From: an uncultured Clostridia bacterium
GTDB lineage: Bacteria; Bacillota; Clostridia; Christensenellales; UBA3700
Reading direction: 5' to 3'
Assembly: GCA_947246685.1 (NCBI GenBank)
Contig: CAMXSN010000002.1
Location: 21,485-85,484, forward strand
DNA length: 64,000 nucleotides
This document shows positions 1,921-20,983 of this stretch, in pieces. Numbering within the stretch: the stretch's first letter is position 1; each line of letters opens with the position of its first letter. A model generated the notes under the pieces. That model was given only the letters and a program-made list of their open reading frames with translations. It ran no database searches and was not told the DNA's origin. Position numbers and translations under genes: made by a program.

Positions 1921-1956
1921 GTTTTGCGGAATTTAGGATAATAGAGTATCAAAGTA

Positions 1957-8400: not shown

Positions 8401-8776
8401 ATCGAATAAAAACGGATATATTCTATCCGGATGGTATGAAAATGATAATGAAGGGGATGTTATATCATCATATTTAATTACAACAGGTACTATTGGGGAT
8501 AAGACGATAACGGCGAAATGGGAAATTATAATGTATACGATTGAGTATGATGTTGAGGATGATGCCGTATTTGAAATAGAAAATCCCAATTATTACAATA
8601 TACAATCCGATACAATAGAATTACAACGTCCGACGAGAGAAGGATATATATTTGTGGATTGGGTTGATGAGAATATGGAAGCGGTAAAAATCATCCCGTC
8701 GGGAAGTATTGGAAATATTAAATTAAAGGCAATATGGATATTGGATGAATCTGCGTCCGGTTCGGAGCCGACATAA
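5417..8776 (+). CDS. surface lipoprotein made of about 14 Listeria-Bacteroides (InlB B-repeat / Flg_new) repeats
   Basis: 1119-aa ORF with a GTG start preceded by AAGGAGG. It overlaps the stop of the upstream gene. The signal ends LFSAC. The motif G-Y-x-F-x-G-W recurs (GFTFAGWYT, GYDFIGWSD, GYTFIGWNE, GYKFIGWSR, GYEFVGWYE, GYVFTGWTC, and others). Confidence 0.9.
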   Translation: MKVKNLLPIIVLLLISSLVCLFSACKEVEEQGNGKDVENFTSYCVTFNLGDDSFTVYSNNKTGKVDKPADPQRSGFTFAGWYTTVDSGNIFNFDSIIVEDTNIYARWDKNPNKIRFEGNGSISGTMPDMIVEGNTPTKLPLNNFFREGYDFIGWSDIANGSVKNKDGGWFYMEEGIVTLFACWQPKKYNVVIDNENGEDTQKIVATFGEFLPLLKMPIKIGYVFSGYYSQKDGNGDKYIDSSMQGCKKYLLANEEITLFAKWIEAKNIINFDGNGNTGGSTLCLSAKSHEEVYLPECGFTRIGYTFIGWNELSDLSGKTYKVGDKFEMPASSEPIVLYAEWVNNNYKIVLDDNFSGEYYEFEISYDVEIELRENTYIRYGYTFVAWNDKSDGSGNYYQDRQTIINLTEEANGIIRLFAIWKPVTVLVLFNKSGGKGGTSSANITFGTQFPLIAAPTKEGYIFGGYYAQENGNGNEYLDSQLVPIKVSDLGADGIEVYANWIPKENTLMLYPNGGVGDIISIETKTDEVINLYDYSFYKIGYTLIGWNTKDNGNGDFYSYDSNYVTIASNNIIKLYAVWVAKSVIVKFNGNGSTSGNNEDESGYCDNEITLPNCGYTRVGYKFIGWSRTKNGDDALLQPNASYKIEALDSGLIEFFAMWDVQYYTVNYLLNGGVNSAYNPVKYTYLSGDIVLDIPTKRGYEFVGWYEDEEFLSKVTAIPSGSFGDKTYVAQWNKITYKIFYILNGANVENPNIINEYDIETETFYLKDPKKPNYNFEGWAEGNVVEKGSTGNKTFTAQWSGVSYSITYVLDGGVNGDGNPGTYMSDSDQIVLKSPTKLGYVFTGWTCVDMGINTPTMPVKIEKNSSGDRTFVAHWDVIKYSISYDLNGGENSDKNPTDYDITDEILLSDPTKIGYNFDGWREGALVVQGSTGNLKFTAEWSPINYEISIIYDKSLELQSKVIKYNIESKDILISVDPSIDCGYSIQVGEEIESVVVSNKNGYILSGWYENDNEGDVISSYLITTGTIGDKTITAKWEIIMYTIEYDVEDDAVFEIENPNYYNIQSDTIELQRPTREGYIFVDWVDENMEAVKIIPSGSIGNIKLKAIWILDESASGSEPT

Positions 8777-8917
8777 CAATATAAGCCGAATTTGCGTGTT
8801 AATTCTGCCTAATGAAACAACTACCATGTTTCATTATCTTGGATATTACATAGAAGGCTTAAAATAATCAAAAACTCAATAAGTAATATTATGATATAAA
8901 CTCAGGAGATAATACAT

Positions 8918-11719
8918 ATGAAAATTAAAGTTTTTCTAGCCTCATCGATCACAGAATTTGAAAGTGATCGTATGAGTTTTGCCATTTATTTGAATAAACT
9001 CAACGCAATATTTGCCGAACAATATGGCGTTTCGATTACTCCTTTTATTTGTGAAACGGCCGATCATTCAGTTAATAAAAACGGCCGAAAACAAGACGAA
9101 TATAATCAAGAAATTGCTGATAGCGATATGGTTATCTTCTTACTGGGGAATAATTTGGGAGAATTCACAAAAGAGGAATTTTGCTTTTCTTGCAACAAGC
9201 TGAAAGAGAATAGCCGACCGAAAATTTATGTTTATTTCTGTAATAAAGGGAATTGTTCCGACGACATTGCTGATTTTAAGAAAGTTCTCGAAACCGAATA
9301 TCAACATTATTACGATACGTTTGAGTACATAGATACAGTCAAGCTTAGCACGTTATTTAATATTCGTCGGTTGGCTTTTCCTTCAATGAAAGTAGAAATT
9401 AAAGGCGACTATTTCTTTGTCGACGGAAAAATGATTTCGCAAGACATATTATCACCGACTAATATACAGGCTTTCAATAATAATCAAGAAATTAATGAAC
9501 TCAAAATAAGATATGATAAATCCGACGAAAATAATAAAAAAATTATAAAAAGAAGAATAAATGAGATACAAAATGATATTTTAAGTGTTTTTCTGGACTT
9601 AAGCAATTATACATTTAACGGGGAATATAACTGTAGAGTGACTGAAGCTGTTAGGTTATTGGAAAACGGTGATAAAGCCAAAGCTATAGATGTATTAGAT
9701 AACGCGCATAACCGAGATAGGCGAGCAGCGAGAAAAAGAGTGCGCCAAATGGAAACACTTGATGATATTAGCAGAATAAAATTCGAAATAAATATTCGCA
9801 AAACGGATAAAGAATATTCGAAAATCGATGATCTATATCGGGAAGCCGTTGAATATGCATTAGAGGATCGTATCGGATTAATGGTATTATACGATTATTC
9901 GTCATGGCTGGCTTCTATTCATCGGGTAGATGAAGCAGTAAAAATTGCAGTACAATTAAATGATATTTTGATTAATTACACACAGGATGAATTGAAAGAT
10001 GACAACATATCGAAGATAGATTTAGCAAATATAAAGATACTTCTAGGCGATTTGTATAGGAGAATATTGCAATTTAATAAAGCATATTCTGCTTACCGTG
10101 AAGCATTTTCTTTTTGGGAGGATTGCATTGATTCGTTTATGGGAGTTCAAGTATGGACATTGGCGGAGTATATTGAGGAAGTTGCTTGTTTCATTCAAAA
10201 TGTTCCTGATTCGGTTTCTGATATTGTTGATCCATTAAATTACGCTAAAGGCGTACGTGTTGGGCAATTAGCCACAGATATAAGAAGACTTAAAAGAAAA
10301 TTGCAAGATAAAAATCAAATAGATTTTAGCACCCTAGAATCTAATCCTATTTACAAAAGAGGAAGTCAATCGATTGCATTATTTGAAGAAAGCTTATCTG
10401 AAAAGTTCAAATCAGATGTAATTTCCGATAGCATTACTTTTGTACTGGATAATCCTATTTGCGAATCTTATATTCTTTTGTTGTTTGCCTTATGTATAAA
10501 GCAATCTGTTCTAGATAAAACGAAAGACTATTCAGGTTATGCTAGAGGATTATCAATGACAATATTAAATATTGCAACAATACAAAATATAATGCGCCGT
10601 TACGAAGATGCCGAAGATGGGGCGAATTTAGCTATAAGTTATTTAACTAAATTTCCCGAGATTAATACCGATATGGATATAAATCATGATTTTCTTCAAG
10701 CATACGCGGTTTTATATACTAGCTATATTAATCGTGATAACATGATTAAAGCGCAGAAATGTAGGAATAATATGTTAAAATACGGTGAAAAAATTTATAA
10801 CCAATATCCAAGAGAATTTGCCTTAGACTATACAGATATGCTATTTCATTTGGGTATTGATAGTCTTCACGCTTCAAACTTTTTTGCATCGGTCGAAATA
10901 TTTGAAAAAATTATTGGCATATATGAAAGTATAGACGCGGACCGGGAAATAGATAGGACACAGTATTTAATTCCATTTTTAATATCTAATCTCAGATGGA
11001 TAGAGGCGTATTCACAATATTCTCATATTACAGAAAAATTTCAGTCTGATTTTAATATTATAAATGATCACTTTATAAAGGCTATAAGTTTATTTGACGC
11101 TATAAATGCAAGCGATGACTTTGATGAGCTAAGTAAATCTAATTGCGTTCTTGAAATAAATTGGTGTAATTTATTATATTTGCCTCCTATAGGGGATATG
11201 AATGCATGTGTAGATATAATAGAACAAGCTTTTGAAATATGTATGAGTTTAAGCTTGGAGGATAATTTTTGCACATATTATCAATGGACAAAAACTTTAG
11301 AAGTAGTAACAATGTTTATTAATTGCTGTTGTGATATTGAACTTGAAAAATCGAAATGGCTTAATAATTTATACTCGATATTAGTGTTGCCGATTGATTT
11401 TATTATAAATAATGCGAAACTGGATCCCTTGCGTTTAATTCCTTCCCATTTCAGACATTTAACTGATTATGCTTTTCTAAATTCTTCAGATGTTGATTTT
11501 TTGACAAACTATAAAACCGTATTGTTTTTGTTTTATGAATCAATAATTGATTGTGAGGATGATGTTGGAGAAGTAAAACAACAGTTGATTGAAAAAATTA
11601 GCAATTCATATAGCGAGATTATAAAACAAGCAAATTCTCTTGAGAATAGGATATGTATACTTTCTATATTAGAAAAAGAAAGGGACAAAATTAAAAAGAA
11701 TTCTAATAGTACCATTTGA
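8918..11719 (+). CDS. large cytoplasmic protein: DUF4062/TIR-like N-terminal domain + coiled coil + TPR-like helical repeats; no NTPase motif
   Basis: 933-aa ORF with an AGGAG RBS. The N-terminus reads KVFLASSITEFESDR ... ADSDMVIFLLGNNLGEFTKEEF ... PKIYVYF, an alternating beta/alpha pattern with the acidic motifs I associate with DUF4062/TIR-like folds. The remaining 800 aa or so are helix-rich and repeat-like. I saw no GxxxxGK[ST] anywhere in the protein. Confidence 0.75.
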   Translation: MKIKVFLASSITEFESDRMSFAIYLNKLNAIFAEQYGVSITPFICETADHSVNKNGRKQDEYNQEIADSDMVIFLLGNNLGEFTKEEFCFSCNKLKENSRPKIYVYFCNKGNCSDDIADFKKVLETEYQHYYDTFEYIDTVKLSTLFNIRRLAFPSMKVEIKGDYFFVDGKMISQDILSPTNIQAFNNNQEINELKIRYDKSDENNKKIIKRRINEIQNDILSVFLDLSNYTFNGEYNCRVTEAVRLLENGDKAKAIDVLDNAHNRDRRAARKRVRQMETLDDISRIKFEINIRKTDKEYSKIDDLYREAVEYALEDRIGLMVLYDYSSWLASIHRVDEAVKIAVQLNDILINYTQDELKDDNISKIDLANIKILLGDLYRRILQFNKAYSAYREAFSFWEDCIDSFMGVQVWTLAEYIEEVACFIQNVPDSVSDIVDPLNYAKGVRVGQLATDIRRLKRKLQDKNQIDFSTLESNPIYKRGSQSIALFEESLSEKFKSDVISDSITFVLDNPICESYILLLFALCIKQSVLDKTKDYSGYARGLSMTILNIATIQNIMRRYEDAEDGANLAISYLTKFPEINTDMDINHDFLQAYAVLYTSYINRDNMIKAQKCRNNMLKYGEKIYNQYPREFALDYTDMLFHLGIDSLHASNFFASVEIFEKIIGIYESIDADREIDRTQYLIPFLISNLRWIEAYSQYSHITEKFQSDFNIINDHFIKAISLFDAINASDDFDELSKSNCVLEINWCNLLYLPPIGDMNACVDIIEQAFEICMSLSLEDNFCTYYQWTKTLEVVTMFINCCCDIELEKSKWLNNLYSILVLPIDFIINNAKLDPLRLIPSHFRHLTDYAFLNSSDVDFLTNYKTVLFLFYESIIDCEDDVGEVKQQLIEKISNSYSEIIKQANSLENRICILSILEKERDKIKKNSNSTI

Positions 11720-11898
11720 CCTAAAGGTTGTACGAAAGTTCCACTAAAATTCCAATGGCTTTCTATATAGAACCTAATAATTGAATAGTTGCGTTCTAAA
11801 TCTGAACTTTTTATGATCAGCTCAGCAGTGCGAAAGCGCAGATTTTGTTTTCAAGATTTTGCAAAACACTGTAATTTGAGCGCAAAGTTTTGATATGT

Positions 11899-11934
11899 GC
11901 GAGCGACGACAATTGCGTCGCCGCACTATTTTTT
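11899..11934 (+). terminator. putative rho-independent terminator downstream of the 933-aa gene
   Basis: GCGAGCGACG-acaattg-CGTCGCCGC forms a 9-bp GC-rich stem with one bulged A, followed by ACTATTTTTT. Confidence 0.45.
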
Positions 11935-12420
11935 GTGCTCGTTCTGCGAATTATACTTACCATTAAGCTCTATTACGATACTTTTGCATGTTGGGCTATC
12001 GTCGCGTTCGACGTATATTTCAAATTTATGATAAATTCTGAATTTTTTTCCGCAACGATTTCCCATATGTTTCGTTTGTCCGTGCTAACTTTGGCAATGT
12101 TTTATTCAATAATTTGATTGAGGAAATATTTGTTTTTTTATGACCATTCAGATTAATCTTTGATAAAAATTTAAACAAACTTTTTCCCATGGGTTCGTTA
12201 AATTTTTAATGGCGGATGCAGAGGCTTTAAAGCCACGTGCCATTAAAGACAGACGGTTTTCAAGAATAAAGTTTAATGGATTTAATGAAAGACTTTATTA
12301 GAGATTATTATGAAATATTACTACAATAATTAAAGACTATAAAAAGCGCTAGACTCTAGTTTAATAAAAAAAGAATGTAAGAAATCCCCAAGATAATCAT
12401 TAAAAATCATAGTCATAATA

Positions 12421-12449
12421 TTGATATTCAATGTTTGTTATGATATAAT
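12421..12449 (+). promoter_or_regulatory. sigma-A type promoter with extended -10 for the helicase-nuclease gene
   Basis: TTGATA, a 17-nt spacer, then TATAAT, with TG at the extended -10 position (TGATATAAT). The -10 hexamer ends 19 nt upstream of the ATG at 12469. Confidence 0.55.
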
Positions 12450-12468
12450 TAACTAAATTATTTGGGTA

Positions 12469-15400
12469 ATGATTATGCAGAAGATTATAGAGAATTTTGT
12501 TAATCAAAAAAGCAATGGCTTAATGTTACTAGATTTGCCAACAGGTTTTGGTAAAACGACTAGCGTAATAAAGTTTATAGATAAATTCATAAACAGTAAT
12601 ACGCAATCGGTTAAGCGAATTTATTTTGTAACAAATCTAAAGAAGAATCTTCCAGAAAAACGATTAAAAAAATCGTTGGGAGATAATTATGATAAATATT
12701 GTTTGTATCTAAAGCCATATTGGGAGTCGGTAACTGAAAAATGGAAGTTAACGCAAATTACGAATCCTGAAGTTTTGAATGCGGAAGAATATAAGAATCT
12801 TAACTTGGATATTGAAACGCTTTATAAATTTAGAGAAGATAATGAAAAACTTAGGAAAGCTAAAGATTTCAATCAAGAATATGTGAAGAATAAACGATTG
12901 ATTCAGTCTTATGAGCAAAAGATTGAAAGGGATACCGAAGTTAAATTTAGACAATTCATTAAAAAGACATTCTTCTATAATCAAACAGTGTATGAGAAAG
13001 ATAAGTTTTTAAAGAATAACCAATGGATTGCCGAGCTTTATCCTGCATGCAAATTAAAAGAAGAGAATATTAAAGTAGTATTGTCAAGTACGAAGAAATT
13101 TTTTAGTCCAATGGATACATTTTCTAGAATGCCGTTTTACATATACAATAACGAAGCATTAACGGAGAATAGTATTACATTTATTGATGAGTTTGATACG
13201 ACGAAAGAAACGTTATTAGATCAAATCATTGATGACGGCTTAAAATTTGATATCGACATTTTTGCGCTATTTCTAAATATCTATTATTCTTTAACAAATC
13301 TTTCATTTCCTGTCACACTAATGAGACTTAGTGATTATAGAAAAGGAAAGATTGAAAAAGAAGAATGGGTGGATATAAAAGAGTTGATAGAAGAACTGAA
13401 AAAGAAATTTCAGCAAGTTTATGAAGATTACCAGTTGCAATTTTTAGTAAAAAGTAAGGGCTTTGAAGAAAAGAAGGCATTTATTTTTGATGATGGCAAA
13501 TCTTTGAATATATTTAGCGATAAATCCAAAAAGGTGTTGAAGGCTACATACGACAAAGATGAAAATATTAACTCATTACTTGCGGTTGCAAAAAGTTATA
13601 AAGGTCAAGAAAAAGAGAGACTTGACAATATTTTGCTCGATGTGAAATTCGCTATAAATAGTTTTATAAATAAATCGGCCTACATATCGAAAAATTACAC
13701 AGATTATAAAAATCAATCTTTAAAGGGATATAAAATTAAATATTCATTTGAGGAATCTGCATTGACCATATTGTCAGCATTTAATGTTGCAGATGAATAT
13801 AGACAATATCTCTTAGATCGCATTATTGATAGAAACGCGAATATGAAACTAGATTTGCACGTAGAACCAGAGTTGGAGTTTATGAATAAAGGGTTCGAAT
13901 ATACTGAACTTGAGGATGATCATGAACACGATTTGCAAACAAAATGTCATGCATTTAAATTTGATACGACACCAGAGGCAATAATTGCTAAACTATGTGT
14001 AAAATCTAGAGCAGTTGGAATTTCAGCGACTGCATCGATAGAGACGGTAATTGGCAATTATGATATTGAATATTTCAAAAAAGTTTTACAAGACGACTTC
14101 TATTCAATTTCAGATAGCGATTATGCTAGGTTAGAGCAAGAGTTTATGGATGAGCAGAAAACATATGAAGAGAATAATATTACTATTCATACGGCTCCTA
14201 TAGATGGCGATAAAGTCTTTTCCGATAAAGAGAATTGCATTCAAGTTATTACGTCGATTTTTAATGAGAAGAATAGAGAATATTATTTAAATTATCTTGA
14301 AAATGATACAGAGCATTATCATTCTTATATTATTTGTAAACTTCTAAAATTGTATACTCATGTTGCGGCAAGTAGAGACATATATTCATTTCTGGCATTC
14401 TTAAATTCGTTTCCCAAAACTCAAGATAAGGCAGACAGACATCAGTTTTTAAATAAGGATTTTTTAGAGAGGGCAATAAGCGATCTTATTAAGCAAAATG
14501 GTTATGAGAATGCGCCTATAATCCATATTGTGAGGAGCGATAACTTTGAGGAAGAATTTGCGAAGATAAATGAAGAATTGGCCGAAGGTAAAAAGGTATT
14601 TGTATTAAGCACATATAGGACTATGGGCAATGGACAGAATATCCAATATAAGATTCCAGATATTGAGAGCATAAAATCAAACGTCATTATCAACAACAAA
14701 GATAGATTGGAAAAAGATTTCGATGCGATATACCTTTTAACTCCAACTAATTTGGTGCAAATGTTATCCTATGATTTGGAGAACAGAGTAAATAATTTGT
14801 GCAAATATTTATTTCAACAGGAATACTTGTATAAGAAGAATTATATATCATTTGATCAAAGAAAAATAAATATTGAATCTGGTTTTAGAAAAACGTTTTA
14901 TGGAGATAGGACAACGTCTTCATATAGAAGGAATGAAGACATATTATTACATACTGCTCAGTTAACAATTCAAGCTGTAGGTAGAATATGTAGATGTCAA
15001 AATAAGAACAAAAACATTTATATTTTTTACGACCAAGAAATTCTTAATCGGTTAAATCTTATTAAAGACGATTTAACCAATGGCAAGAAGATTTTTAATA
15101 AAGAGTTTAGGGTATTGTTGGAACAACCTGTACATGATGAGCGTATAGTATTCGATCATTATACGCTTAGGAATAAGAAAGCTTATGGTTTTCTAACAAA
15201 AATGTCAAAGGAGGTTAGGAAATCTAAAGAGAACGTTAGTGAATGGCAGGAATTGCGGAATTTTGTATTAAAACATCCAACAGCTAATAACATTCCGGAT
15301 AAATATGCATTTTTGTATTTTAAGTTTGATACGCCTGTCTATGGGTATGCATATAGATTTAATAATAATTATGAGTTTGTGAATTTCACGGTCAACAATA

Positions 15401-15915
15401 CATATGAAAAGACTCAAGTGTCAGCAGAGGGTAGTGAACTAATAAGGCTTATGAGTATTCCGGAGTTAAGGGAATATTTTGCAAGAAATGGATACGCCAC
15501 TAATTTTGAGCGCGGAATCTATGTGATGTCGGAATCTTTGTATAAGCAAATTTATAAAGGTGCGCTCGGCGAGGCTGTAGGAAGATATATAATTTCAAAG
15601 GCATGTGGTTGCGATTTGGAGGAGTTGGACAATTATCAGCAGTATGAGGCTTTTGATTTCAAAATTAATAATATTTATTTTGATTTTAAGCACTGGGATT
15701 ATTTTATTAAAGATAATGATAGTTATAGTAAATTTATTGAGTGGAAACTTAAAACAGTCCAAGGGGCAAAAGTAGTTGTTGCCAATATTTTTCAACGTGG
15801 CAATCATAAAATACGAGAATCGGTTGATGGTAAGATAATTCAAATACCATACTTAATAAATGATGACAATGAAATAGATTATAAATATCTAGATATTTTG
15901 CTAGACTTAATATAA
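12469..15915 (+). CDS. SF2 (DExD/H, SNF2-flavoured) helicase fused to a C-terminal PD-(D/E)xK-like nuclease module
   Basis: 1148-aa ORF. Helicase motifs: I LDLPTGFGKTT (nt 12544-12561), II FIDEFD (about 13186-13197), III-like GISATAS, V-like LSTYRTMGNGQNIQ, and VI QAVGRICR (14971-14994). The C-terminus reads GALGEAVG ... YEAFDFKINNIYFDFKHW (15646-15696). Confidence 0.85.
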   Translation: MIMQKIIENFVNQKSNGLMLLDLPTGFGKTTSVIKFIDKFINSNTQSVKRIYFVTNLKKNLPEKRLKKSLGDNYDKYCLYLKPYWESVTEKWKLTQITNPEVLNAEEYKNLNLDIETLYKFREDNEKLRKAKDFNQEYVKNKRLIQSYEQKIERDTEVKFRQFIKKTFFYNQTVYEKDKFLKNNQWIAELYPACKLKEENIKVVLSSTKKFFSPMDTFSRMPFYIYNNEALTENSITFIDEFDTTKETLLDQIIDDGLKFDIDIFALFLNIYYSLTNLSFPVTLMRLSDYRKGKIEKEEWVDIKELIEELKKKFQQVYEDYQLQFLVKSKGFEEKKAFIFDDGKSLNIFSDKSKKVLKATYDKDENINSLLAVAKSYKGQEKERLDNILLDVKFAINSFINKSAYISKNYTDYKNQSLKGYKIKYSFEESALTILSAFNVADEYRQYLLDRIIDRNANMKLDLHVEPELEFMNKGFEYTELEDDHEHDLQTKCHAFKFDTTPEAIIAKLCVKSRAVGISATASIETVIGNYDIEYFKKVLQDDFYSISDSDYARLEQEFMDEQKTYEENNITIHTAPIDGDKVFSDKENCIQVITSIFNEKNREYYLNYLENDTEHYHSYIICKLLKLYTHVAASRDIYSFLAFLNSFPKTQDKADRHQFLNKDFLERAISDLIKQNGYENAPIIHIVRSDNFEEEFAKINEELAEGKKVFVLSTYRTMGNGQNIQYKIPDIESIKSNVIINNKDRLEKDFDAIYLLTPTNLVQMLSYDLENRVNNLCKYLFQQEYLYKKNYISFDQRKINIESGFRKTFYGDRTTSSYRRNEDILLHTAQLTIQAVGRICRCQNKNKNIYIFYDQEILNRLNLIKDDLTNGKKIFNKEFRVLLEQPVHDERIVFDHYTLRNKKAYGFLTKMSKEVRKSKENVSEWQELRNFVLKHPTANNIPDKYAFLYFKFDTPVYGYAYRFNNNYEFVNFTVNNTYEKTQVSAEGSELIRLMSIPELREYFARNGYATNFERGIYVMSESLYKQIYKGALGEAVGRYIISKACGCDLEELDNYQQYEAFDFKINNIYFDFKHWDYFIKDNDSYSKFIEWKLKTVQGAKVVVANIFQRGNHKIRESVDGKIIQIPYLINDDNEIDYKYLDILLDLI

Positions 15916-16043
15916 TATTATTAGCAACTGAAGTTAAATTTGTAAATGATTAAGGAAAATGACAGTCTATGTTTCTTTCTAGCCAAAGTACATCGATATC
16001 CCATTTTAATGAAAAAAAGATTAATTAGAGGCAATAATATCAA

Positions 16044-17255
16044 TTATTCACTAGGTGAATTATCAATCACTTGAAAATTCTTAATAAAAGTACTTATTAT
16101 TTCATCGTATTGTTTAAAAAATTCATCTATTTCTTTAAGATCTTTAGGTTTAATAATAGAAAGCATAGATAAGCCTTCTATAGATTGTAATTTAGTCAAA
16201 ATATTAGCAAGTTGATTATTTGTTCGGAATAGCATATTGTAATAAAATAAATGCTTTAACAATAGTGGCTTGCAATCTTTAGTGAATTCTAATATGTGTT
16301 TAGCTATCAAAGATGTATGTTTTTTAATGATAGAAATATAATTGGTTAGATTTTCCATTGCACATGTGAAGTGTGTGTTTAAAGTTGACAATGCTGATGA
16401 CGTTAAACTTGATAAAAATAGAAACTCATTTCGTTTAAGTAGCTCATCGCACAGGTCTAAAGTTCTATGAGTAATTCTATTAGCTATGATAATATTTAAT
16501 TCTGAAAAAGACTTAGATTCGTTAATGATGAACTGTAAAACAGACTTAGCTTGCTCTGTATTATCTTGGCAAAGGGCTTCTAAAAATAACATATCTATGG
16601 TCTCAAATTCGTTTGAGTAGGTTTTGGAAATATAATTATCGATTTTCGCGATTTGATCTTCGTTTAGATTTGGTATCGCAGTAAGAGTCGCATTTTCAAA
16701 AACGCAAATATAATCAGTATTCTTAATCTTAAATCGAACCTTACTTTCATAATAATAATATACGGGGTCTAGGGAATAGAGCCATATTGCATAAACAATT
16801 AAATAGATAAAACATAAAGATAGATATATTGCTGTAGCTATCATATTTTTATAGTCTTGCAAGATGAAATGATATATCCATAGAGAAGTATTTATAAATA
16901 TAAATAGCCAAGAATCTTTGCGATAATCAGCAATACGTGGGATACTTTTATGTATTTCTCTTAGGGTAATTCCAAGTACTTTTGTGTTCATTTCTTTTAA
17001 CAATGGAAGCAAGATTGAAATATATATGCCTAAAAGGGCGGTGGGTAACGCAACGAGCGCAATTGCCCAATTCTCGTTGCCTTTTATTGCATTCTCAAAA
17101 TTTGGCATCGCATATTCCGCAATTGCCAAGTATCCAATGAGGATAATCAAGCAAAATAGGAGCTTGAAAAATGGACCACTGAAAAACACCTCTGCCCGGC
17201 TAGTTGTTTTTTGCAATTTAATTAGTTTTCTCTTTATGCGTTTATAAGATTTCAT
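16044..17255 (-). CDS. hypothetical 4-TM membrane protein with a helical soluble domain of about 240 aa
   Basis: 403-aa ORF, very AT-rich. Four hydrophobic segments lie in the first 160 aa (FFKLLFCLIILIGYLAIA, WAIALVALPTALLGIYISILLPLL, WLFIFINTSLWIYHFIL, MIATAIYLSLCFIYLIVYAIWLY). I recognised no family. Confidence 0.7.
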   Translation of the reverse strand: MKSYKRIKRKLIKLQKTTSRAEVFFSGPFFKLLFCLIILIGYLAIAEYAMPNFENAIKGNENWAIALVALPTALLGIYISILLPLLKEMNTKVLGITLREIHKSIPRIADYRKDSWLFIFINTSLWIYHFILQDYKNMIATAIYLSLCFIYLIVYAIWLYSLDPVYYYYESKVRFKIKNTDYICVFENATLTAIPNLNEDQIAKIDNYISKTYSNEFETIDMLFLEALCQDNTEQAKSVLQFIINESKSFSELNIIIANRITHRTLDLCDELLKRNEFLFLSSLTSSALSTLNTHFTCAMENLTNYISIIKKHTSLIAKHILEFTKDCKPLLLKHLFYYNMLFRTNNQLANILTKLQSIEGLSMLSIIKPKDLKEIDEFFKQYDEIISTFIKNFQVIDNSPSE

Positions 17256-17273
17256 TTTAGTTCTGCATTATTA

Positions 17274-17282
17274 ATTATATCA
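17274..17282 (-). promoter_or_regulatory. extended -10 element (TGATATAAT on the minus strand) upstream of the 4-TM gene
   Basis: The reverse complement of 17274-17282 is TGATATAAT, about 19 nt upstream of the ATG at 17255. The same 9-mer occurs at the helicase promoter. Confidence 0.35.
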
Positions 17283-17299
17283 AAGATTTATATATAGTC

Positions 17300-17339
17300 G
17301 AGCCTAAAACTTTCCGTTGACTGGGTTCGTTTTAGGCTC
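17300..17339 (-). terminator. hairpin immediately 3' of tRNA-Ser
   Basis: Perfect 11-bp inverted repeat GAGCCTAAAAC / GTTTTAGGCTC with an 18-nt loop, starting 5 nt after the tRNA CCA end. The trailing U-tract is weak. Confidence 0.4.
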
Positions 17340-17343
17340 GTTA

Positions 17344-17432
17344 TGGCGGAAGCGAAGGGATTCGAACCCCTGTGGGCTTGCACCCAAATGCTTTTCAAGA
17401 GCACCTCGTTATGACCACTTCGATACGCTTCC
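17344..17432 (-). tRNA. tRNA-Ser (anticodon UGA), CCA encoded
   Basis: The minus strand reads GGAAGCG..GTGCT-CTTGAAA-AGCAT..long variable arm..AGGGGTTCGAATCCCTT-CGCTTCC-G-CCA. The cloverleaf has a TPsiC GTTCGAATC loop and a long extra arm, and it parallels E. coli tRNA-Ser(UGA). Confidence 0.9.
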
Positions 17433-17644
17433 ATGTGAATTATTAAGATTTTGTTGCGAAAATTTTCGACGTATTTCGTAGATATTTTCGCACGTTTCTA
17501 CGAATTTGCGGTCAATTTATAGATTTTATCGACCGTCTAGGTGTTGCCGATTTGCTACTAAACGTCAATTTTTCATCAACACAAATCAAGCATTTTTTGG
17601 AAGTTCATAAGTGGTCGAGTAGTGCTTGTAGAATTATTTTCTAG

Positions 17645-17709
17645 GTGCAACCCTATGGGGATGTTTTCCTTTCAAGACTACCTCGTTATGACCGCTTCGA
17701 TATGCTTCC
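17645..17709 (-). pseudogene. decayed tRNA-Ser fragment (5' half only)
   Basis: The minus strand reads GGAAGCATATCGAAGCGGTCATAACGAGGTAGTCTTGAAA and matches the first 40 nt or so of the intact tRNA-Ser with a few mismatches. The anticodon stem no longer pairs, and there is no T-arm or acceptor 3' strand. Confidence 0.6.
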
Positions 17710-17799
17710 GTAAGGGCAGATTGTAATCTGTCGTGATTATTGAGTAATTATATTATAAGTTTTAAGGGCGAGTTTGTCAATAAAACGCGCGCCTAAGCG

Positions 17800-18324
17800 T
17801 CAAAGTTCATCTTCATCGTCGGCATCTTCTTCGTCCTCGTCGTCTATATCGGACGTGTCGACGTCGTCGATATTGTAATTGAAATCGTCCTCGAAATCGT
17901 CTTTGACTTCTTCGATTTCTTCCTCGTCTTCTTCGTCGTTTGAAAAATCGTCTTTGTCAAAGTCGTTGGCAGAGAAATCATCCTGGTCGTCGAAGGCGTC
18001 GTCATACATATCAAACTTTTCTTCCTCTTCGATTTCGTCAAAGGAGATCTTTTCGATATCGTCTTCCATTTCGTTTTCGGACGTAACGGTGTCGCTTTCG
18101 TAAATATCGGTTTCGCCTTGTTGCTTAGTCTTGCAATCGGCGCACATTTTTTCGCCGCGGTCGATATAATTTATGCCGCAAACGGGGCAGAGCATTTCGT
18201 CGTCCTCGTCTTCAAGCAAAGTAAAGCCTTCCATACCGAGTTCTGCTTTGCACACGTCGCAGTACTCGTTTTCTGCGAGAATCCAATTGAGTTCGCATCT
18301 CGGACATTTAATATATTTTCCCAT
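17800..18324 (-). CDS. double zinc-ribbon protein with an extremely acidic (D/E-rich) C-terminal tail
   Basis: I place the start at the internal Met (MGKYIKCPRCE...), which is preceded by AGGAGG. Two CxxC...CxxC pairs are present (CPRC..CDVC; CPVC..CADC). About 110 aa of D/E-rich sequence follows. Confidence 0.7.
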   Translation of the reverse strand: MGKYIKCPRCELNWILAENEYCDVCKAELGMEGFTLLEDEDDEMLCPVCGINYIDRGEKMCADCKTKQQGETDIYESDTVTSENEMEDDIEKISFDEIEEEEKFDMYDDAFDDQDDFSANDFDKDDFSNDEEDEEEIEEVKDDFEDDFNYNIDDVDTSDIDDEDEEDADDEDEL

Positions 18325-18538
18325 AAATCCTCCTAGGCAACGTGAAGAAGATATGCCTTCAATGTTTAGTATTATATGCATAAATTTCTGATTTGTAAAC
18401 ACTTTTTCTTAAAAAATATTAAAAATTTTATATAACGAATAATCGGATAAAAAACATGCGTATAAAAACGCATGTTCAAGCAACTTGATTTGATTGAACG
18501 GAAGCGCTTTGCACAGTGAAAACCGGCTTTTCAATGGC

Positions 18539-18577
18539 AAAACAGAGACGGGGAAGAATCTTCTCCGTCTCTGTTTT
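18539..18577 (-). terminator. rho-independent terminator downstream of spo0A
   Basis: Inverted repeat AAAACAGAGACGG / CCGTCTCTGTTTT around a 13-nt loop. On the minus strand the stem runs into TTTT. Confidence 0.6.
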
Positions 18578-18672
18578 AGGGTGTTATATGGATGGTGCAT
18601 TACGTCGTAATATTATACTCGCGCTATCGGCGCCGTATTGCGCCTTAAAGCGACGAAAACGCTTTGGGCTTA

Positions 18673-19461
18673 TCAAGCGCCTTCCATGAGCATTTTGTCG
18701 GCGAGAAGCGCGATAAACTCGCCGTTGGTCGGCTTGTCGTTGGCAGTATATATCTTTATGCCGAAAATATTATTGATATTTTCAATCTTTCCGCGATTCC
18801 AAGCTACTTCTATCGCGTGGCGAATAGCGCGTTCAACCTTGGACGGGGACGTCTCGAATTTATTTGCAATAGACGGATACAGTTTTTTGGTGATGCTATT
18901 GATTATTTCCGGACTGTCGATAGCCATTTTGATAGCTTCTCTCAAAAATTGATATCCTTTTATATGCGCGGGGATTCCGACTGATATGAAAATATTGGCG
19001 AGTTTTTCATCGAGGTTACGCTGCGATCTTTTGACTGCCTGCTGAATGAGTCTGTCGTCGAGCACAGTGGATTTTTTAGTAACTGTGACGCCGCCGAATT
19101 CTTTGACTCTGTCTTTGAGCATTTGCATATTTACCGGCTTGACTAGGTAATAGCTTGCGCCGAGCGTAATAGCTTTATTGATAAAGTTTTCGCCGATAAG
19201 CTGAGACGTCACGATAAAATTGGGTTTTGAAGTCATATTGTTGTAATCGAGGTTGGATAGCACTCCAAAACCGTCGACTTCCGGCATTACCAAATCAAGT
19301 ATAACCACGTCGGGGTTAAAAGATTCTATTTTATGAATAGCTTCCAAGCCGTCGCTTGCGCTGCCTATTACTTCTACTTCTTCGTCGTCAAAATAACTTT
19401 CTCTAACGTTGTTTACAAATTCTTCGCTGTCGTCTACAATCAGCAATTTGATTTTTTTCAT
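18673..19461 (-). CDS. spo0A: sporulation master response regulator Spo0A
   Basis: N-terminal receiver domain (KLLIVDDS ... DVVILDLVMPEVDG). The C-terminal Spo0A-specific domain carries HIKGYQFLREAI and SKVERAIRHAIEVAWNRG. I chose the start at MKKIKLL after GGAGGAA. Confidence 0.92.
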   Translation of the reverse strand: MKKIKLLIVDDSEEFVNNVRESYFDDEEVEVIGSASDGLEAIHKIESFNPDVVILDLVMPEVDGFGVLSNLDYNNMTSKPNFIVTSQLIGENFINKAITLGASYYLVKPVNMQMLKDRVKEFGGVTVTKKSTVLDDRLIQQAVKRSQRNLDEKLANIFISVGIPAHIKGYQFLREAIKMAIDSPEIINSITKKLYPSIANKFETSPSKVERAIRHAIEVAWNRGKIENINNIFGIKIYTANDKPTNGEFIALLADKMLMEGA

Positions 19462-19503
19462 ATCATTCCTCCGCAAATTCTTTTAAGTATCTACATTTTA
19501 TTA

Positions 19504-19550
19504 TGTCGCAAATATTCTTTCAATGTAACGGCGGGTCGAAAAATGTCGTT
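19504..19550. promoter_or_regulatory. three 0A-box-like heptamers in the spo0A upstream region
   Basis: TGTCGCA (19504-19510), GGTCGAA (19534-19540) and TGTCGTT (19544-19550) resemble the Bacillus 0A-box consensus TGNCGAA. Confidence 0.3.
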
Positions 19551-19644
19551 TTAATAAAAATAAGGTCAAAATGAACGCATTTAAGATTATTTTAACGTAT
19601 AAAAATCGCTTTTATAATTTTTTCATATATGCTATAATGCTTGT

Positions 19645-19959
19645 ATGGAAACTAATGAGATATTAAAAAAGCTGCGAAATATCAACAGAATCAGTCAAAA
19701 GCAACTGGCGGACGATCTCGGAATCGGGCAGGCTACGGTATGCCAATGGGAAAAGGGGATATCCAAGCCAACGTGCGACACGATAGCGGCGCTCGCTCAG
19801 TATTACGAGGTCACGGCTGATTTTATTCTCGGGCTTTCGGACGAAGGCGACAGACAGCTCAACAAAGAGCAAGAGGCGTTTTTGGGGTTGTTTGACAACC
19901 TCACTTCCGTGCAGAAAGAATTGATCATAGGCATAATGATGCAAATGAAAGATTTATAA
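19645..19959 (+). CDS. XRE-family helix-turn-helix transcriptional regulator
   Basis: 104 aa. Contains ISQKQLADDLGIGQATVCQWEKG, the canonical Cro/C1-type HTH. Confidence 0.8.
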   Translation: METNEILKKLRNINRISQKQLADDLGIGQATVCQWEKGISKPTCDTIAALAQYYEVTADFILGLSDEGDRQLNKEQEAFLGLFDNLTSVQKELIIGIMMQMKDL

Positions 19960-19963
19960 CCGT

Positions 19964-20000
19964 GTCAATCGATTGACATTTGGCTTTGGCGGAGTATAAT
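19964..20000 (+). promoter_or_regulatory. near-consensus sigma-A promoter overlapped by a perfect 14-nt palindrome (candidate operator)
   Basis: Palindrome GTCAATCGATTGAC at 19964-19977. TTGACA (19973-19978), a 16-nt spacer, then TATAAT (19995-20000). It lies just upstream of the AEC transporter gene and just downstream of the XRE gene. Confidence 0.55.
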
Positions 20001-20038
20001 TTATGCGTGACGGCTAAGACCGCGCGCAAAAGGTGGAT

Positions 20039-20983
20039 ATGCAGGAATTCAAGACAACTCTTATAATGGTGGGCATAATGCTGGTGTATGCTGTGCCCGG
20101 ATATATATTAATAAAAGTAAAAGCGGTAAAGTCGGAAAGCATATCTTCGTTTTCTAAGGTATTGTTGTTCGTATGTCAACCGGCATTGACGCTGTATTCT
20201 TTTAATAAGGCAGATTTCAGCAAACAGCTCGGCATAAACCTATTGATTTTTCTTGCTATAATTACTGTGGCGCAATTGGCGTTTATAGGCGTATTTTATT
20301 TAATATTCCGTAAGAAAATGGACGACGTAAGATACAGGATTACCACGGTTGCCACGACGCTATCCAACTGTTCTTTTTTGGGAGTGCCTTTATTGGAGGC
20401 TATTTTTCCCGATTCGCCCAACGTGGCGGTATATTCGATGATGTATTTTCTGTCCATGAGCCTTCTCGGTTGGACGCTCGTATCGGCTATTATCACGCGC
20501 GATAAAAAATATATCAATATCAAAAAGATACTTATCAATCCCGCGACGCTGTCAATTGCAATTTCACTTCCGTTTTTCTTCACTGGATACAAGATAGGAT
20601 TTGAGAACGGCGAATTGGCGGGGCAGATCGAAAGGATGATAGATATATTGGGCAAGATGACAACTCCGCTATGTATGCTTGTGATGGGTATGCGCCTTGC
20701 GACGGTCAAATTCAAGAGTTTGTTTACCAATTGGATGCAATATTTTGCGATTGCGATAAATCAAATAGTATTTCCCCTGTGCGTCTTGGGCGCACTGTGG
20801 TTGTTGGGAGTCGACGCGGAGCTCAGAGTATGTATGTTTATAATGTGCGCGTGTCCCGTAGCTGCAGTGGTGCAAAATTATGCGGAAATATTAGGCGAAG
20901 GACAGGATACAGCCGCCAATATGGTCTTACTTGGCACAATGTCGTCAATCGTCACTTTGCCTCTGATGGCGTTGTTGATTTAG
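20039..20983 (+). CDS. AEC (auxin efflux carrier) family transporter
   Basis: Polytopic membrane protein of about 314 aa with the typical AEC N-terminus (VPGYILIK ... SKVLLFVCQPALTLYSF). The start could be GTG 20033 or ATG 20039. Confidence 0.8.
   Translation: MQEFKTTLIMVGIMLVYAVPGYILIKVKAVKSESISSFSKVLLFVCQPALTLYSFNKADFSKQLGINLLIFLAIITVAQLAFIGVFYLIFRKKMDDVRYRITTVATTLSNCSFLGVPLLEAIFPDSPNVAVYSMMYFLSMSLLGWTLVSAIITRDKKYINIKKILINPATLSIAISLPFFFTGYKIGFENGELAGQIERMIDILGKMTTPLCMLVMGMRLATVKFKSLFTNWMQYFAIAINQIVFPLCVLGALWLLGVDAELRVCMFIMCACPVAAVVQNYAEILGEGQDTAANMVLLGTMSSIVTLPLMALLI

What the first reader, a model, noticed from the sequence alone, without database searches (positions are those of the whole stretch)
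12469..15915. 1148-aa SF2 helicase with a large insertion and a C-terminal PD-(D/E)xK-like nuclease
All motifs were read directly from the translation. Motif I is LPTGFGKTT and motif II is IDEFD. An insertion of about 270 aa separates motif II from GISATAS. Motif V-like is LSTYRTMGNGQNIQ and motif VI is QAVGRICRCQ; both resemble SNF2-type motifs (xGGxGxNLQ and QAxxRxxRxGQ). After a linker of about 250 aa, the C-terminus has GALGEAVG ... YEAFDF-KINN-IYFDFKHW. That is a hhhD ... hh(D/E)xK restriction-endonuclease-like core with an upstream acidic residue. Single-chain helicase-nuclease fusions are recurrent phage-defence effectors (Hna, Nhi and Hhe types), but this one does not look like SF1, and the N-terminal and insertion regions are not recognisable to me.
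Basis: partly seen in the sequence, partly recalled or inferred. Interest (0 to 1): 0.7.

Follow-up and report, generated by a model that had tools for sequence, protein, structure and literature searches.

The report
DdmD helicase-nuclease without its Argonaute partner
This gene encodes a full-length relative of DdmD, the plasmid-destroying helicase-nuclease of Vibrio cholerae, but it belongs to a well-supported branch of that family in gut Clostridia that lacks the Argonaute partner (DdmE) which normally guides DdmD to its target, so it probably acts as a one-gene defence.

Summary
The protein is not an unknown fusion. It is a full-length homolog of DdmD (PADLOC 5e-35; PDB phmmer 7e-53; AlphaFold model pLDDT 87, whose top 20 Foldseek hits are all DdmD). 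Its helicase is XPD/DinG-type, not SNF2-type. The "270-aa insertion" is the Arch domain. The five nuclease residues match the experimentally essential V. cholerae residues.

The unexpected part is the context. In the nearest sister group (28-34% identity), ddmE overlaps or abuts ddmD in 67 of 72 distinct evaluable loci. In the window's clade (NJ bootstrap 200/200; identity down to ~33%) it is found in 0 of 30, plus 4 further members checked (Fisher p = 5e-21). No pseudogene remnants and no other conserved partner were found.

The clade keeps all catalytic residues and has dN/dS of 0.04-0.11. It sits in defence islands. In the window it is a ~3.7-kb single-gene cassette with its own promoter. 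A near-identical strain carries Hachiman and Gabija in that slot.

Best reading: a self-contained DdmD-type defence gene, probably activated directly by ssDNA, as reported for L. casei DdmD alone. A partner encoded elsewhere in the genome is not excluded. Verdict: new variant of a known kind.

The parts
12265..15959 (+). Single-gene ddmD-like cassette (variable segment of the hotspot)
   Evidence: Left edge: a near-identical strain (L166/L167) is 99.6% identical to window 919-12264 and then diverges. Right edge: L006 (Christensenella MAG) is 93% identical in DNA over 12445-15959, whereas the shared chromosomal flanks 16060-20983 are only 73-75% identical. No flanking direct or inverted repeats of note.
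12421..12449 (+). Sigma-70/SigA-type promoter candidate: TTGATA-17 nt-TATAAT with an extended TG
   Evidence: Best match in 11600-17500 (11 of 12 positions). It lies 20-26 nt upstream of the start codons and inside the cassette-specific segment. It is a consensus match only; function was not tested.
12469..15915 (+). ddmD-like ORF (1148 codons from the first ATG; probable start 12475, 1146 aa; stop 15913-15915)
   Evidence: PADLOC DdmD 5.1e-35. PDB phmmer: 9ix4 DdmD 6.8e-53, V. cholerae DdmD 3e-37. AlphaFold2 pLDDT 86.7, pTM 0.79. Foldseek top 20 hits are all DdmD, E 8e-52 to 1e-42.
12535..12561 (+). Helicase motif I / Walker A, LPTGFGKTT (K29)
   Evidence: Read directly. Invariant in the family. 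Corresponds to V. cholerae K55, whose K55A mutant abolishes plasmid elimination.
12727..13062 (+). INS (insertion) domain, about residues 87-198, all-helical (approximate boundaries)
   Evidence: Boundaries transferred from LcDdmD (INS 91-220) through the phmmer alignment and the model's secondary structure. No Fe-S cysteine cluster is seen in the translation, as in V. cholerae DdmD.
13183..13197 (+). Helicase motif II / Walker B, IDEFD (D240, E241, D243)
   Evidence: Invariant. V. cholerae D272A abolishes ATPase activity.
13246..13965 (+).
   Evidence: It lies between motif II and motif III, as in XPD/DinG and DdmD. LcDdmD Arch is 280-503. INS and Arch form the autoinhibitory dimer interface in V. 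cholerae and L. casei DdmD.
14023..14031 (+). Helicase motif III, S519-A-T521
   Evidence: Invariant.
14143..15135 (+). HD2 RecA-like domain, about residues 559-889. Includes the helical bundle at ~580-634 that corresponds to the DdmE-binding region of V. cholerae and L. casei DdmD, and motif VI Q835..R839..R842 (14971-14994)
   Evidence: Alignment to V. cholerae S603-A633 and to the L. casei contact residues. The arginine fingers R855/R858 of V. cholerae correspond to R839/R842. Clade-specific replacements at positions 621, 632 and 647.
15136..15912 (+). Linker plus PD-(D/E)xK nuclease domain, about residues 890-1148. Catalytic E1035 (15571-15573), E1060 (15646-15648), D1063 (15655-15657), D1072 (15682-15684), K1074 (15688-15690)
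   Evidence: These residues align with V. cholerae E1059/E1082/D1085/D1100/K1102, each essential for plasmid elimination. They are invariant in the clade apart from one or two truncated sequences.
17344..17432 (-). tRNA-Ser(TGA), a landmark at the right side of the low-GC variable region (context, not part of the gene)
   Evidence: GC is 28-33% over ~8.5-17 kb versus 40-46% beyond it.

Best explanation
The gene encodes a DdmD-family helicase-nuclease: an XPD/DinG-like 5'-3' ssDNA motor (HD1 with INS and Arch inserts, then HD2) fused to a PD-(D/E)xK nuclease. It belongs to a monophyletic branch of the family that has lost the long-C Argonaute DdmE and works as a self-contained, single-gene anti-plasmid/anti-phage cassette.

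Proposed mechanism:
1. As in characterised DdmD, the resting protein is probably an autoinhibited dimer (inferred).
2. Instead of being delivered to a guide-defined D-loop by DdmE, it loads directly on exposed single-stranded or 5'-tailed/forked DNA. Such DNA is found in rolling-circle plasmid or phage replication intermediates and in incoming conjugative ssDNA (inferred).
3. Once loaded it translocates 5'-3' using ATP and feeds the strand to its nuclease.

Shown here: homology, fold, intact catalytic residues, purifying selection, absence of ddmE nearby, defence-island context and single-gene mobility.

Inferred: the defence function and the guide-independent loading.
For: Identity as DdmD:
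- PADLOC DdmD 5e-35 over residues 303-1132.
- PDB phmmer: L. casei DdmD 7e-53, V. cholerae DdmD 3e-37, near full length.
- AlphaFold2 model pLDDT 86.7; its top 20 Foldseek hits are all DdmD, followed by XPD, DinG and CasDinG.
- Catalytic residues match the mutationally validated V. cholerae residues.

Loss of DdmE:
- An iterated DdmE HMM was seeded on a PADLOC-confirmed DdmE. It finds ddmE overlapping or within 10 nt of the ddmD stop in 67 of 72 distinct evaluable loci of the sister group, and in 0 of 30 of the window's clade (Fisher p = 5e-21).
- Four more divergent clade members also lack it, while the next homolog out (483 bits) has it.
- There are no DdmE remnants in any reading frame.
- The clade has NJ bootstrap support of 200/200.
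- Both groups are about equally distant from the DdmE-linked L. casei and V. cholerae proteins. Linkage is therefore most parsimoniously ancestral.

Still functional:
- Catalytic residues are invariant in 37 distinct members.
- dN/dS is 0.04-0.11.
- There are no clade-specific indels of 6 aa or more.

Self-contained unit:
- No neighbour family is shared by more than 8 of 40 distinct loci.
- The gene is 93% identical in DNA between two genomes whose flanks are 73-75% identical.
- It has its own near-consensus promoter.

Defence context:
- Neighbours include Type I RM, MTases, Avs4-like, Tmn, PDC-S06, GajA, BREX, a CBASS cyclase and TmtA.
- A strain 99.6% identical up to position 12264 carries Hachiman, an integrase and Gabija in the same slot.

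Mechanistic precedent:
- L. casei DdmD alone degrades ssDNA and nicks plasmids.
- It is activated by dimer dissociation triggered by 10-20 nt of ssDNA.
- Its authors conclude that DdmE recruits rather than activates DdmD.
Against: - No experiment supports any of this.
- Only 6-10 kb on each side was examined in most loci (64 kb for the window), and most genomes are MAGs. A pAgo or other partner encoded elsewhere cannot be excluded.
- In V. cholerae, DdmD alone does not degrade dsDNA plasmid in vitro and needs DdmE for targeting. An unguided DdmD would need another way to tell foreign DNA from self, or would risk autoimmunity.
- The structural element that binds DdmE in V. cholerae and L. casei (the HD2 helical bundle) is retained. 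That is equally compatible with a surviving partner interaction.
- Rooting rests on midpoint/NJ trees and bit-score comparisons, not on a formal outgroup-rooted phylogeny.
Confidence: 0.6

Rival explanations
1. It is an ordinary DdmDE effector whose Argonaute (DdmE or another pAgo) is encoded elsewhere in the genome and acts in trans.
For: The DdmE-binding HD2 helical bundle is structurally retained, and there are no clade-specific indels. V. cholerae DdmD needs DdmE to attack dsDNA plasmids. Only local context could be examined, and most genomes are MAGs.
Against: In the sister group ddmE is translationally coupled to ddmD in 67 of 67 positive loci, with a median overlap of 17 nt. A complete and clade-wide uncoupling (0 of 30, plus 4 further members) would be unusual. 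The gene moves on its own: 93% identity against 73-75% in the flanks. There is no DdmE in the 64-kb window. Residues that are nearly invariant in the DdmE-linked group are replaced in this clade: R621, F632, K647 and W918.
Confidence: 0.17
2. A different, physically adjacent protein has replaced DdmE as the sensor or recruiter. Candidates are the Type I restriction HsdR often found just upstream, or in this window the 933-aa DUF4062/TPR protein.
For: hsdR ends 19-42 bp upstream of the gene in several loci, and Type I RM genes are nearby in about 8-10 of 44 loci. The 933-aa protein is the immediate upstream neighbour in the window.
Against: No family is present in more than 8 of 40 distinct loci. 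The 933-aa gene is absent next to the 95%-identical gene in L006. It also persists unchanged in the strain that carries Hachiman instead of ddmD. Its model is an alpha/beta domain plus a TPR solenoid, not a pAgo. There are 750 bp and a separate promoter between the two genes.
Confidence: 0.08
3. It is a housekeeping or DNA-repair helicase-nuclease (DinG/XPD-like with a nuclease), not an immune gene.
For: XPD/DinG-type motors are repair enzymes. The protein is under strong purifying selection.
Against: Its presence varies between strains at one locus: the same species carries either this gene or Hachiman plus Gabija. There is evidence of horizontal exchange and low-GC island composition. Its neighbours are consistently defence genes. 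All of its nearest characterised relatives are defence proteins.
Confidence: 0.08
4. It is a decaying remnant of a DdmDE system, left behind after loss of ddmE.
For: ddmE is missing.
Against: The ORF is intact and full length in 37 distinct members that have diverged to about 33-40% identity. Catalytic residues are invariant and dN/dS is 0.04-0.11. The window's arrangement occurs on at least 21 contigs from many samples.
Confidence: 0.02

Closest known systems
DdmD of the DdmDE plasmid-defence system (Vibrio cholerae VPI-2; Lactobacillus casei; PDB 9ezx, 8u0u, 9ix4 and others)
   Same: Full-length homology and the same fold and domain order: HD1 with INS and Arch inserts, HD2, then a PD-(D/E)xK nuclease. 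The Walker A/B motifs, arginine fingers and five nuclease residues are the same. Some clade members also have a divergent WYL regulator upstream, as V. cholerae does.
   Different: Only about 19-20% identical to the solved proteins. There is no ddmE next to it, and none anywhere in its clade. Four residues that are nearly invariant in the DdmE-linked relatives are replaced: R621I, F632V/I, K647S/R, and loss of W918. The host range is gut Clostridia/Christensenellales-type MAGs.
XPD / DinG / CasDinG (type IV CRISPR) SF2 helicases
   Same: Same helicase architecture, with Arch and insertion domains in HD1, and by inference the same 5'-3' polarity. These are the next-best Foldseek hits after DdmD, at E 1e-9 to 1e-5.
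   Different: They have no C-terminal nuclease. XPD and DinG carry an Fe-S cluster, which DdmD lacks. Sequence identity is about 8-13%.
Single-protein or sensor-less helicase-nuclease defence effectors (Hna, Nhi, DruE of Druantia, Cas3)
   Same: Same functional logic: one polypeptide couples ATP-driven translocation on ssDNA to a nuclease. DruE is also reported to be a dimer that becomes a monomer on DNA with ssDNA overhangs. Cas3 is the recruited-effector analogy drawn by the DdmDE authors.
   Different: The helicase and nuclease folds are unrelated (SF1 in Nhi, PLD in DruE, HD in Cas3). No PADLOC model other than DdmD matched at E <= 0.1. This is an analogy, not family membership.
Hachiman (HamA/HamB)
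   Same: It occupies the same chromosomal slot in a near-identical strain. It is also a helicase-plus-nuclease defence.
   Different: It is a two-gene system with an unrelated helicase family and a DUF1837 nuclease.

Membership tests
DdmD protein family (helicase-nuclease of DdmDE) | Significant full-length sequence similarity to characterised DdmD | tested here: met
   PADLOC DdmD 5.1e-35. phmmer against PDB: LcDdmD 6.8e-53 (query 183-1132, plus the N-terminus), VcDdmD 3e-37.
DdmD protein family (helicase-nuclease of DdmDE) | XPD/DinG-like SF2 core with INS and Arch inserts in HD1, HD2, and a C-terminal PD-(D/E)xK domain | tested here: met
   AlphaFold2 model (pLDDT 86.7) aligns over ~1240-1260 columns to 20 DdmD chains, E 8e-52 to 1e-42, TM ~0.55-0.60. 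XPD, DinG and CasDinG come next.
DdmD protein family (helicase-nuclease of DdmDE) | Catalytic residues: Walker A Lys, Walker B Asp, two Arg fingers, and nuclease E/E/D/D-x-K | tested here: met
   K29, D240/E241, R839/R842, E1035, E1060, D1063, D1072 and K1074 align with V. cholerae K55, D272, R855/R858, E1059, E1082, D1085, D1100 and K1102. They are invariant in the clade.
DdmDE two-gene system | An adjacent ddmE gene (catalytically inactive long-C pAgo), normally overlapping the 3' end of ddmD | tested here: not met
   No DdmE by PADLOC or by the iterated HMM in the 64-kb window. Found in 0 of 30 distinct evaluable loci of the clade, plus 4 more members, against 67 of 72 in the sister group. 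No remnants. The upstream 933-aa protein is an alpha/beta plus TPR protein, not a pAgo.
DdmDE two-gene system | Autoinhibited DdmD homodimer released on delivery to a guide-defined D-loop | not testable with these tools
   The INS and Arch domains that form the dimer interface are present. The oligomeric state cannot be predicted here, and the interface is poorly conserved even between V. cholerae and L. casei.
DdmDE two-gene system | Elimination of plasmids in vivo | not testable with these tools
   This needs an experiment.
   No SNF2 Pfam or PADLOC hit. In Foldseek, CHD1 appears only at E ~5e-3 to 5e-2 over 440-620 columns, far below XPD and DinG.
Other single-chain helicase-nuclease defence proteins (Hna, Nhi, Hhe, HamB) | A match to the family profile | tested here: not met
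   The PADLOC scan at E <= 0.1 returned DdmD only. This holds for whichever of these families PADLOC-DB v2.0.0 models.

The most novel reading that the evidence does not exclude
A whole lineage of DdmD has become guide-independent. After losing its Argonaute, the helicase-nuclease itself senses invader DNA: exposed ssDNA or forks open its autoinhibited dimer. It then destroys that DNA as a one-gene immune system. This would be a natural example of an Argonaute-recruited effector evolving into an autonomous sensor-effector. The replaced residues (R621, F632, K647, W918) would mark the abandoned DdmE-docking surface.
Probability: 0.4. Interest if true: 0.7.

Novelty: new variant of a known kind. 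Interest (0 to 1): 0.55.

Why it matters
DdmDE is the textbook case of an Argonaute that does not cut but recruits a helicase-nuclease. All published mechanism work treats DdmD as dependent on DdmE for targeting.

A diverse DdmE-less clade that is under purifying selection and sits in defence islands raises a concrete, testable question. What tells an unguided DdmD which DNA to destroy, and how is self-DNA spared? The L. casei result that ssDNA alone can open the DdmD dimer suggests an answer. This clade would be the natural system in which to test it.

Practical points:
- Defence-annotation tools that require both genes to call DdmDE would not report such loci as a system. None of the 74 homolog clusters carries a Pfam domain on record or any name other than 'hypothetical protein' or a generic helicase domain label.
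- The hosts are abundant gut Clostridia (Christensenellales-type), which are hard to manipulate genetically. An anti-plasmid gene there is relevant to making them tractable.

Tried and rejected
- **Upstream 933-aa gene as a DdmE substitute.** Rejected: no PADLOC or PDB sequence hit. It is not co-conserved. Its fold is an alpha/beta domain plus a TPR solenoid.
- **Degenerate ddmE in the 750-bp gap 11720-12468 or elsewhere.** Rejected: a six-frame HMM search found nothing. The gap up to 12264 is shared with the strain that lacks ddmD.
- **Large same-strand genes downstream in other loci as cryptic pAgos.** Rejected: they are Avs4-like, Tmn, PDC-S06, GajA, MTase, DUF4238 and similar genes.
- **Clade-specific domain loss or gain in DdmD.** None of 6 aa or more.
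- **att sites, IS ends or flanking repeats around the cassette.** Only AT-rich chance matches.
- **Rfam.** Only the tRNA was found.
- **Phage or plasmid carriage.** No phage hit, and only 5 distant plasmid hits.
- **Literature on DdmE-less DdmD.** Nothing was found in the searchable library. The two Nature papers (PMC7613841, PMC11649018) were not available, so prior mention there cannot be excluded.
- **Conservation and net charge of the DdmE-contact region.** Net charge does not differ clearly between the clades. The L. casei contact residues are poorly conserved in both, so this test is inconclusive.
- **First bootstrap test.** It gave 8/100 only because my predefined set left out P0123, which groups inside the clade. 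With P0123 included, support is 200/200.


Full report
**1. The observation**

The ORF at 12469-15915 (+) is real, and it is the only long ORF on either strand there. From the first ATG it is 1148 codons. All homolog clusters start two codons later, at MQK.... A GGG lies 8 nt before that second ATG. The likely product is therefore 1146 aa, starting at 12475.

- Walker A: LPTGFGK29TT
- Motif II: IDEFD (240-243)
- Motif III: S519-A-T521, 276 residues after motif II
- Motif VI: Q835AVGR839ICR842
- C-terminus: GALGE1035, YE1060AFD1063F, FD1072FK1074

These positions are invariant in an alignment of 36 homologs down to 27% identity.

**2. What the protein is**

Pfam sees only a sub-threshold ResIII N-terminus. 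PADLOC's DdmD model matches residues 303-1132 at 5e-35, and no other defence model matches.

Against PDB sequences the best hits are L. casei DdmD (9ix4, 6.8e-53) and V. cholerae DdmD (3e-37), both over nearly the full length.

An AlphaFold2 model built on the family alignment is confident (pLDDT 86.7, pTM 0.79). Its first 20 Foldseek hits in the PDB are all DdmD chains (E 8e-52 to 1e-42). XPD, DinG and CasDinG follow.

The published structures describe the architecture:
- DdmD is an XPD/DinG-like 5'-3' SF2 helicase.
- HD1 carries an INS domain and an Arch domain.
- HD2 follows, then a PD-(D/E)xK nuclease.

The SNF2 resemblance is not supported.

The nuclease call is right. E1035, E1060, D1063, D1072 and K1074 align with V. 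cholerae E1059, E1082, D1085, D1100 and K1102, each of which is essential for plasmid elimination. K29 corresponds to K55, and R839/R842 to the arginine fingers R855/R858.

**3. The missing partner**

In the characterised systems DdmD is the effector of a two-gene module. DdmE is a catalytically dead long-C Argonaute loaded with a short DNA guide. It binds the plasmid and hands the displaced strand to DdmD, whose autoinhibited dimer comes apart.

The window has no DdmE. Neither PADLOC nor my HMM finds one among its ORFs.

I surveyed the family as follows:
- I fetched 80 genomic and 80 metagenomic loci, plus look-ups of individual homologs.
- I built a DdmE HMM by iteration from a neighbour that PADLOC confirms as DdmE.
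- I searched all ORFs of all loci.

The result is clear-cut. After de-duplication at 97% identity, and counting only loci with at least 2 kb downstream:

| Group | Loci with ddmE |
|---|---|
| Group 28-34% identical to the window protein | 67 of 72 |
| The window's own clade | 0 of 30 |

Fisher's exact test gives p = 5e-21. In all 67 positive loci the ddmE ORF starts overlapping, or within 10 nt of, the ddmD stop.

An exhaustive HMMER search of 1.84 billion representatives found about 1,000 family members. Among them were intermediates between the two groups:
- Four intermediates (505-623 bits to the window protein) also lack DdmE.
- The next one out (483 bits) has it, at E = 3e-177.

A six-frame search found no DdmE pseudogene fragments in the clade's loci.

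The DdmE-less sequences form one clade with 200/200 NJ bootstrap support. Members of this clade and of the DdmE-linked sister group are about equally far from L. casei DdmD (178-210 bits) and V. cholerae DdmD (96-131 bits). They score about 430 bits against each other. The characterised DdmE-linked proteins are therefore outgroups to both. The most parsimonious history is a single loss of ddmE at the base of this clade. That rooting is an inference, not a formal rooted tree.

**4. Is the orphan functional and self-contained?**

It appears functional:
- Thirty-seven distinct full-length clade members keep every ATPase and nuclease catalytic residue. The only exceptions are one or two truncated sequences.
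- Pairwise dN/dS is 0.04-0.11.
- No indels of 6 residues or more distinguish the clade from DdmE-linked relatives.

No other gene has taken DdmE's place:
- Clustering all neighbours within 5 kb in 40 distinct loci gives no family present in more than 8.
- The commonest is a Type I restriction HsdR, sometimes only 19-42 bp upstream, with HsdM and HsdS nearby.
- The others are C5/N6 methyltransferases, Avs4-like, Tmn, PDC-S06, GajA, BREX, a CBASS cyclase, a KAP-NTPase and TmtA.
- These are typical defence-island neighbours. None is a pAgo.

**5. The window's own locus**

Comparison with L006:
- The gene, with about 25 nt upstream and 44 nt downstream (12445-15959), is 93% identical in DNA to L006, a Christensenella MAG.
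- The flanking chromosomal genes, including Spo0A, are only 73-75% identical. This shows recent exchange of a single-gene unit.
- L006 has hsdR upstream where the window has the 933-aa gene.

Comparison with L166/L167:
- A second strain is 99.6% identical to the window from 919 to 12264 and then diverges.
- It carries Hachiman HamA/HamB, an integrase and Gabija instead.
- The cassette is therefore about 12265-15959.

Other features of the locus:
- The cassette contains the best promoter match in the region, TTGATA-17-TATAAT with an extended TG, at 12421-12449.
- No flanking repeats were found.
- The surrounding ~8.5-17 kb is 28-33% GC, against 40-46% in the core genes. It abuts tRNA-Ser(TGA) at 17344-17432.
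- The window's arrangement recurs on at least 21 contigs from different samples.
- The upstream 933-aa protein is an alpha/beta (DUF4062-like) domain followed by a long TPR solenoid. It stays in place whichever cassette follows it, so it is not a partner.

**6. How it probably works**

The enzymology can be transferred from DdmD with fair confidence:
- ATP-driven 5'-3' translocation on ssDNA through the HD1/HD2 channel.
- Cleavage of the strand by the PD-(D/E)xK domain.

What cannot be transferred is targeting. The most relevant published result comes from L. casei DdmD:
- On its own it degrades ssDNA, nicks plasmids and unwinds 5'-tailed DNA.
- ssDNA of about 10-20 nt is enough to dissociate its inhibitory dimer.
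- Its authors conclude that DdmE recruits rather than activates.

V. cholerae DdmD alone also cuts ssDNA, but it does not attack dsDNA plasmid.

I therefore propose that members of this clade are loaded directly by exposed ssDNA or forked DNA. Rolling-circle replication intermediates (common among small plasmids of Firmicutes; my own knowledge, not tested here) and incoming conjugative strands are obvious candidates. This step is inference.

One weak but suggestive observation concerns four positions that are nearly invariant in the DdmE-linked group and replaced in the DdmE-less clade:

| Position | DdmE-linked group | DdmE-less clade |
|---|---|---|
| 621 | R in 41/48 | I in 21/24 |
| 632 | F in 45/48 | V or I in 21/24 |
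| 647 | K in 42/48 | mostly S or R |
| 918 | W in 46/48 | variable |

Three of the four lie in HD2 just after the helical bundle that binds DdmE in V. cholerae (S603-A633, about window 580-610) and close to the L. casei contact R632. The residue correspondences are not established. The L. casei and V. cholerae interfaces themselves differ. This is a lead, not evidence.

**7. Rivals**

- **A pAgo encoded elsewhere.** This is the main rival. I could inspect only 6-10 kb on each side in most loci, and 64 kb in the window.
- **An adjacent replacement partner.** This is disfavoured by the lack of any conserved neighbour.
- **A housekeeping repair role.** This is disfavoured by strain-level presence/absence, horizontal exchange and island context.
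- **A decaying remnant.** This is excluded by the selection data.

**8. Novelty and score**

As a protein this is a new member of a known, structurally solved family, so the finding as written loses most of its novelty. As a system it fails the defining feature of DdmDE, because there is no DdmE, and it does so clade-wide.

I found no description of DdmE-less DdmD lineages in the searchable literature.

I rate it a new variant of a known kind, with interest 0.55.

DdmE-less DdmD also appears to have arisen at least three more times inside the DdmE-linked group: L068/L085, L065/L066 and L031.

Noticed in passing
window 8918-11719 (+): A 933-aa protein with an N-terminal alpha/beta domain (weak DUF4062 match, E 1e-4) and a ~750-aa TPR-like solenoid (model pLDDT 82). 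Its family is tiny: 5 clusters at 48-100% identity. It stays at the edge of the hotspot whether the next cassette is ddmD-like or Hachiman. A 53%-identical homolog sits beside VWA, protein-kinase and 671-aa genes (L169/L170). It is possibly an independent defence or sensor gene.
   Followed up: partly
L166 10803-18802 (strain 99.6% identical to window 919-12264): An alternative allele of the same hotspot: Hachiman HamA/HamB, an HTH gene, a 541-aa integrase, then Gabija GajB/GajA, in place of the ddmD-like cassette. The right-hand junction was not reached.
   Followed up: partly
L001 13438-14005; L008, L010/L012, L011, L024, L098, L099, L103 (adjacent to ddmD): A recurring trio of small opposite-strand ORFs (about 79-94 aa, 121 aa, 79-94 aa; no Pfam hit) lies directly next to DdmE-less ddmD in about 8 of 40 distinct loci. 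It is downstream in some loci and upstream in others. It is absent from the window. It could be a mobile-element module or an accessory/regulatory set.
   Followed up: partly
L065 9113-9997 and L066 9168-9998: In two Bacteroidota loci of the DdmE-linked group, ddmE is absent. A 276-294-aa Hypoth_Ymh (PF09509) gene ends 3 nt before the ddmD start. It may be an alternative partner.
   Followed up: no
L048 13452-18094: ddmE is split into a 180-aa fragment and a 597-aa fragment by an inserted element that carries 252-aa and 517-aa minus-strand ORFs.
   Followed up: no
L002 8803-9795 (-) and L029: A WYL-domain regulator is divergently transcribed upstream of a DdmE-less ddmD (50% identical to the window protein). 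This mirrors the WYL repressor upstream of V. cholerae ddmDE. The window has no such gene.
   Followed up: no
window 11720-12264: A 545-bp non-coding stretch shared with the Hachiman-allele strain. It contains short GC-rich patches, a small hairpin (12000-12013) and broken reading frames on the minus strand. It looks like a decayed gene remnant. There is no Rfam hit.
   Followed up: partly
window 16044-17255 (-) versus L006 8712-10385: The conserved 403-aa flanking gene has only a weak Peptidase_M50-like match and is probably a membrane protein. It is intact in the window but split into 271-aa and 125-aa ORFs in L006. L006 also has an extra 418-aa gene of unknown function between ddmD and this gene.
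   Followed up: no
window 1957-8776 (+): Two very large tandem genes lie upstream of the hotspot: 1156 aa, and 1119 aa with 14 Listeria-Bacteroides (Flg_new) repeats. They are probably cell-surface proteins.
   Followed up: no
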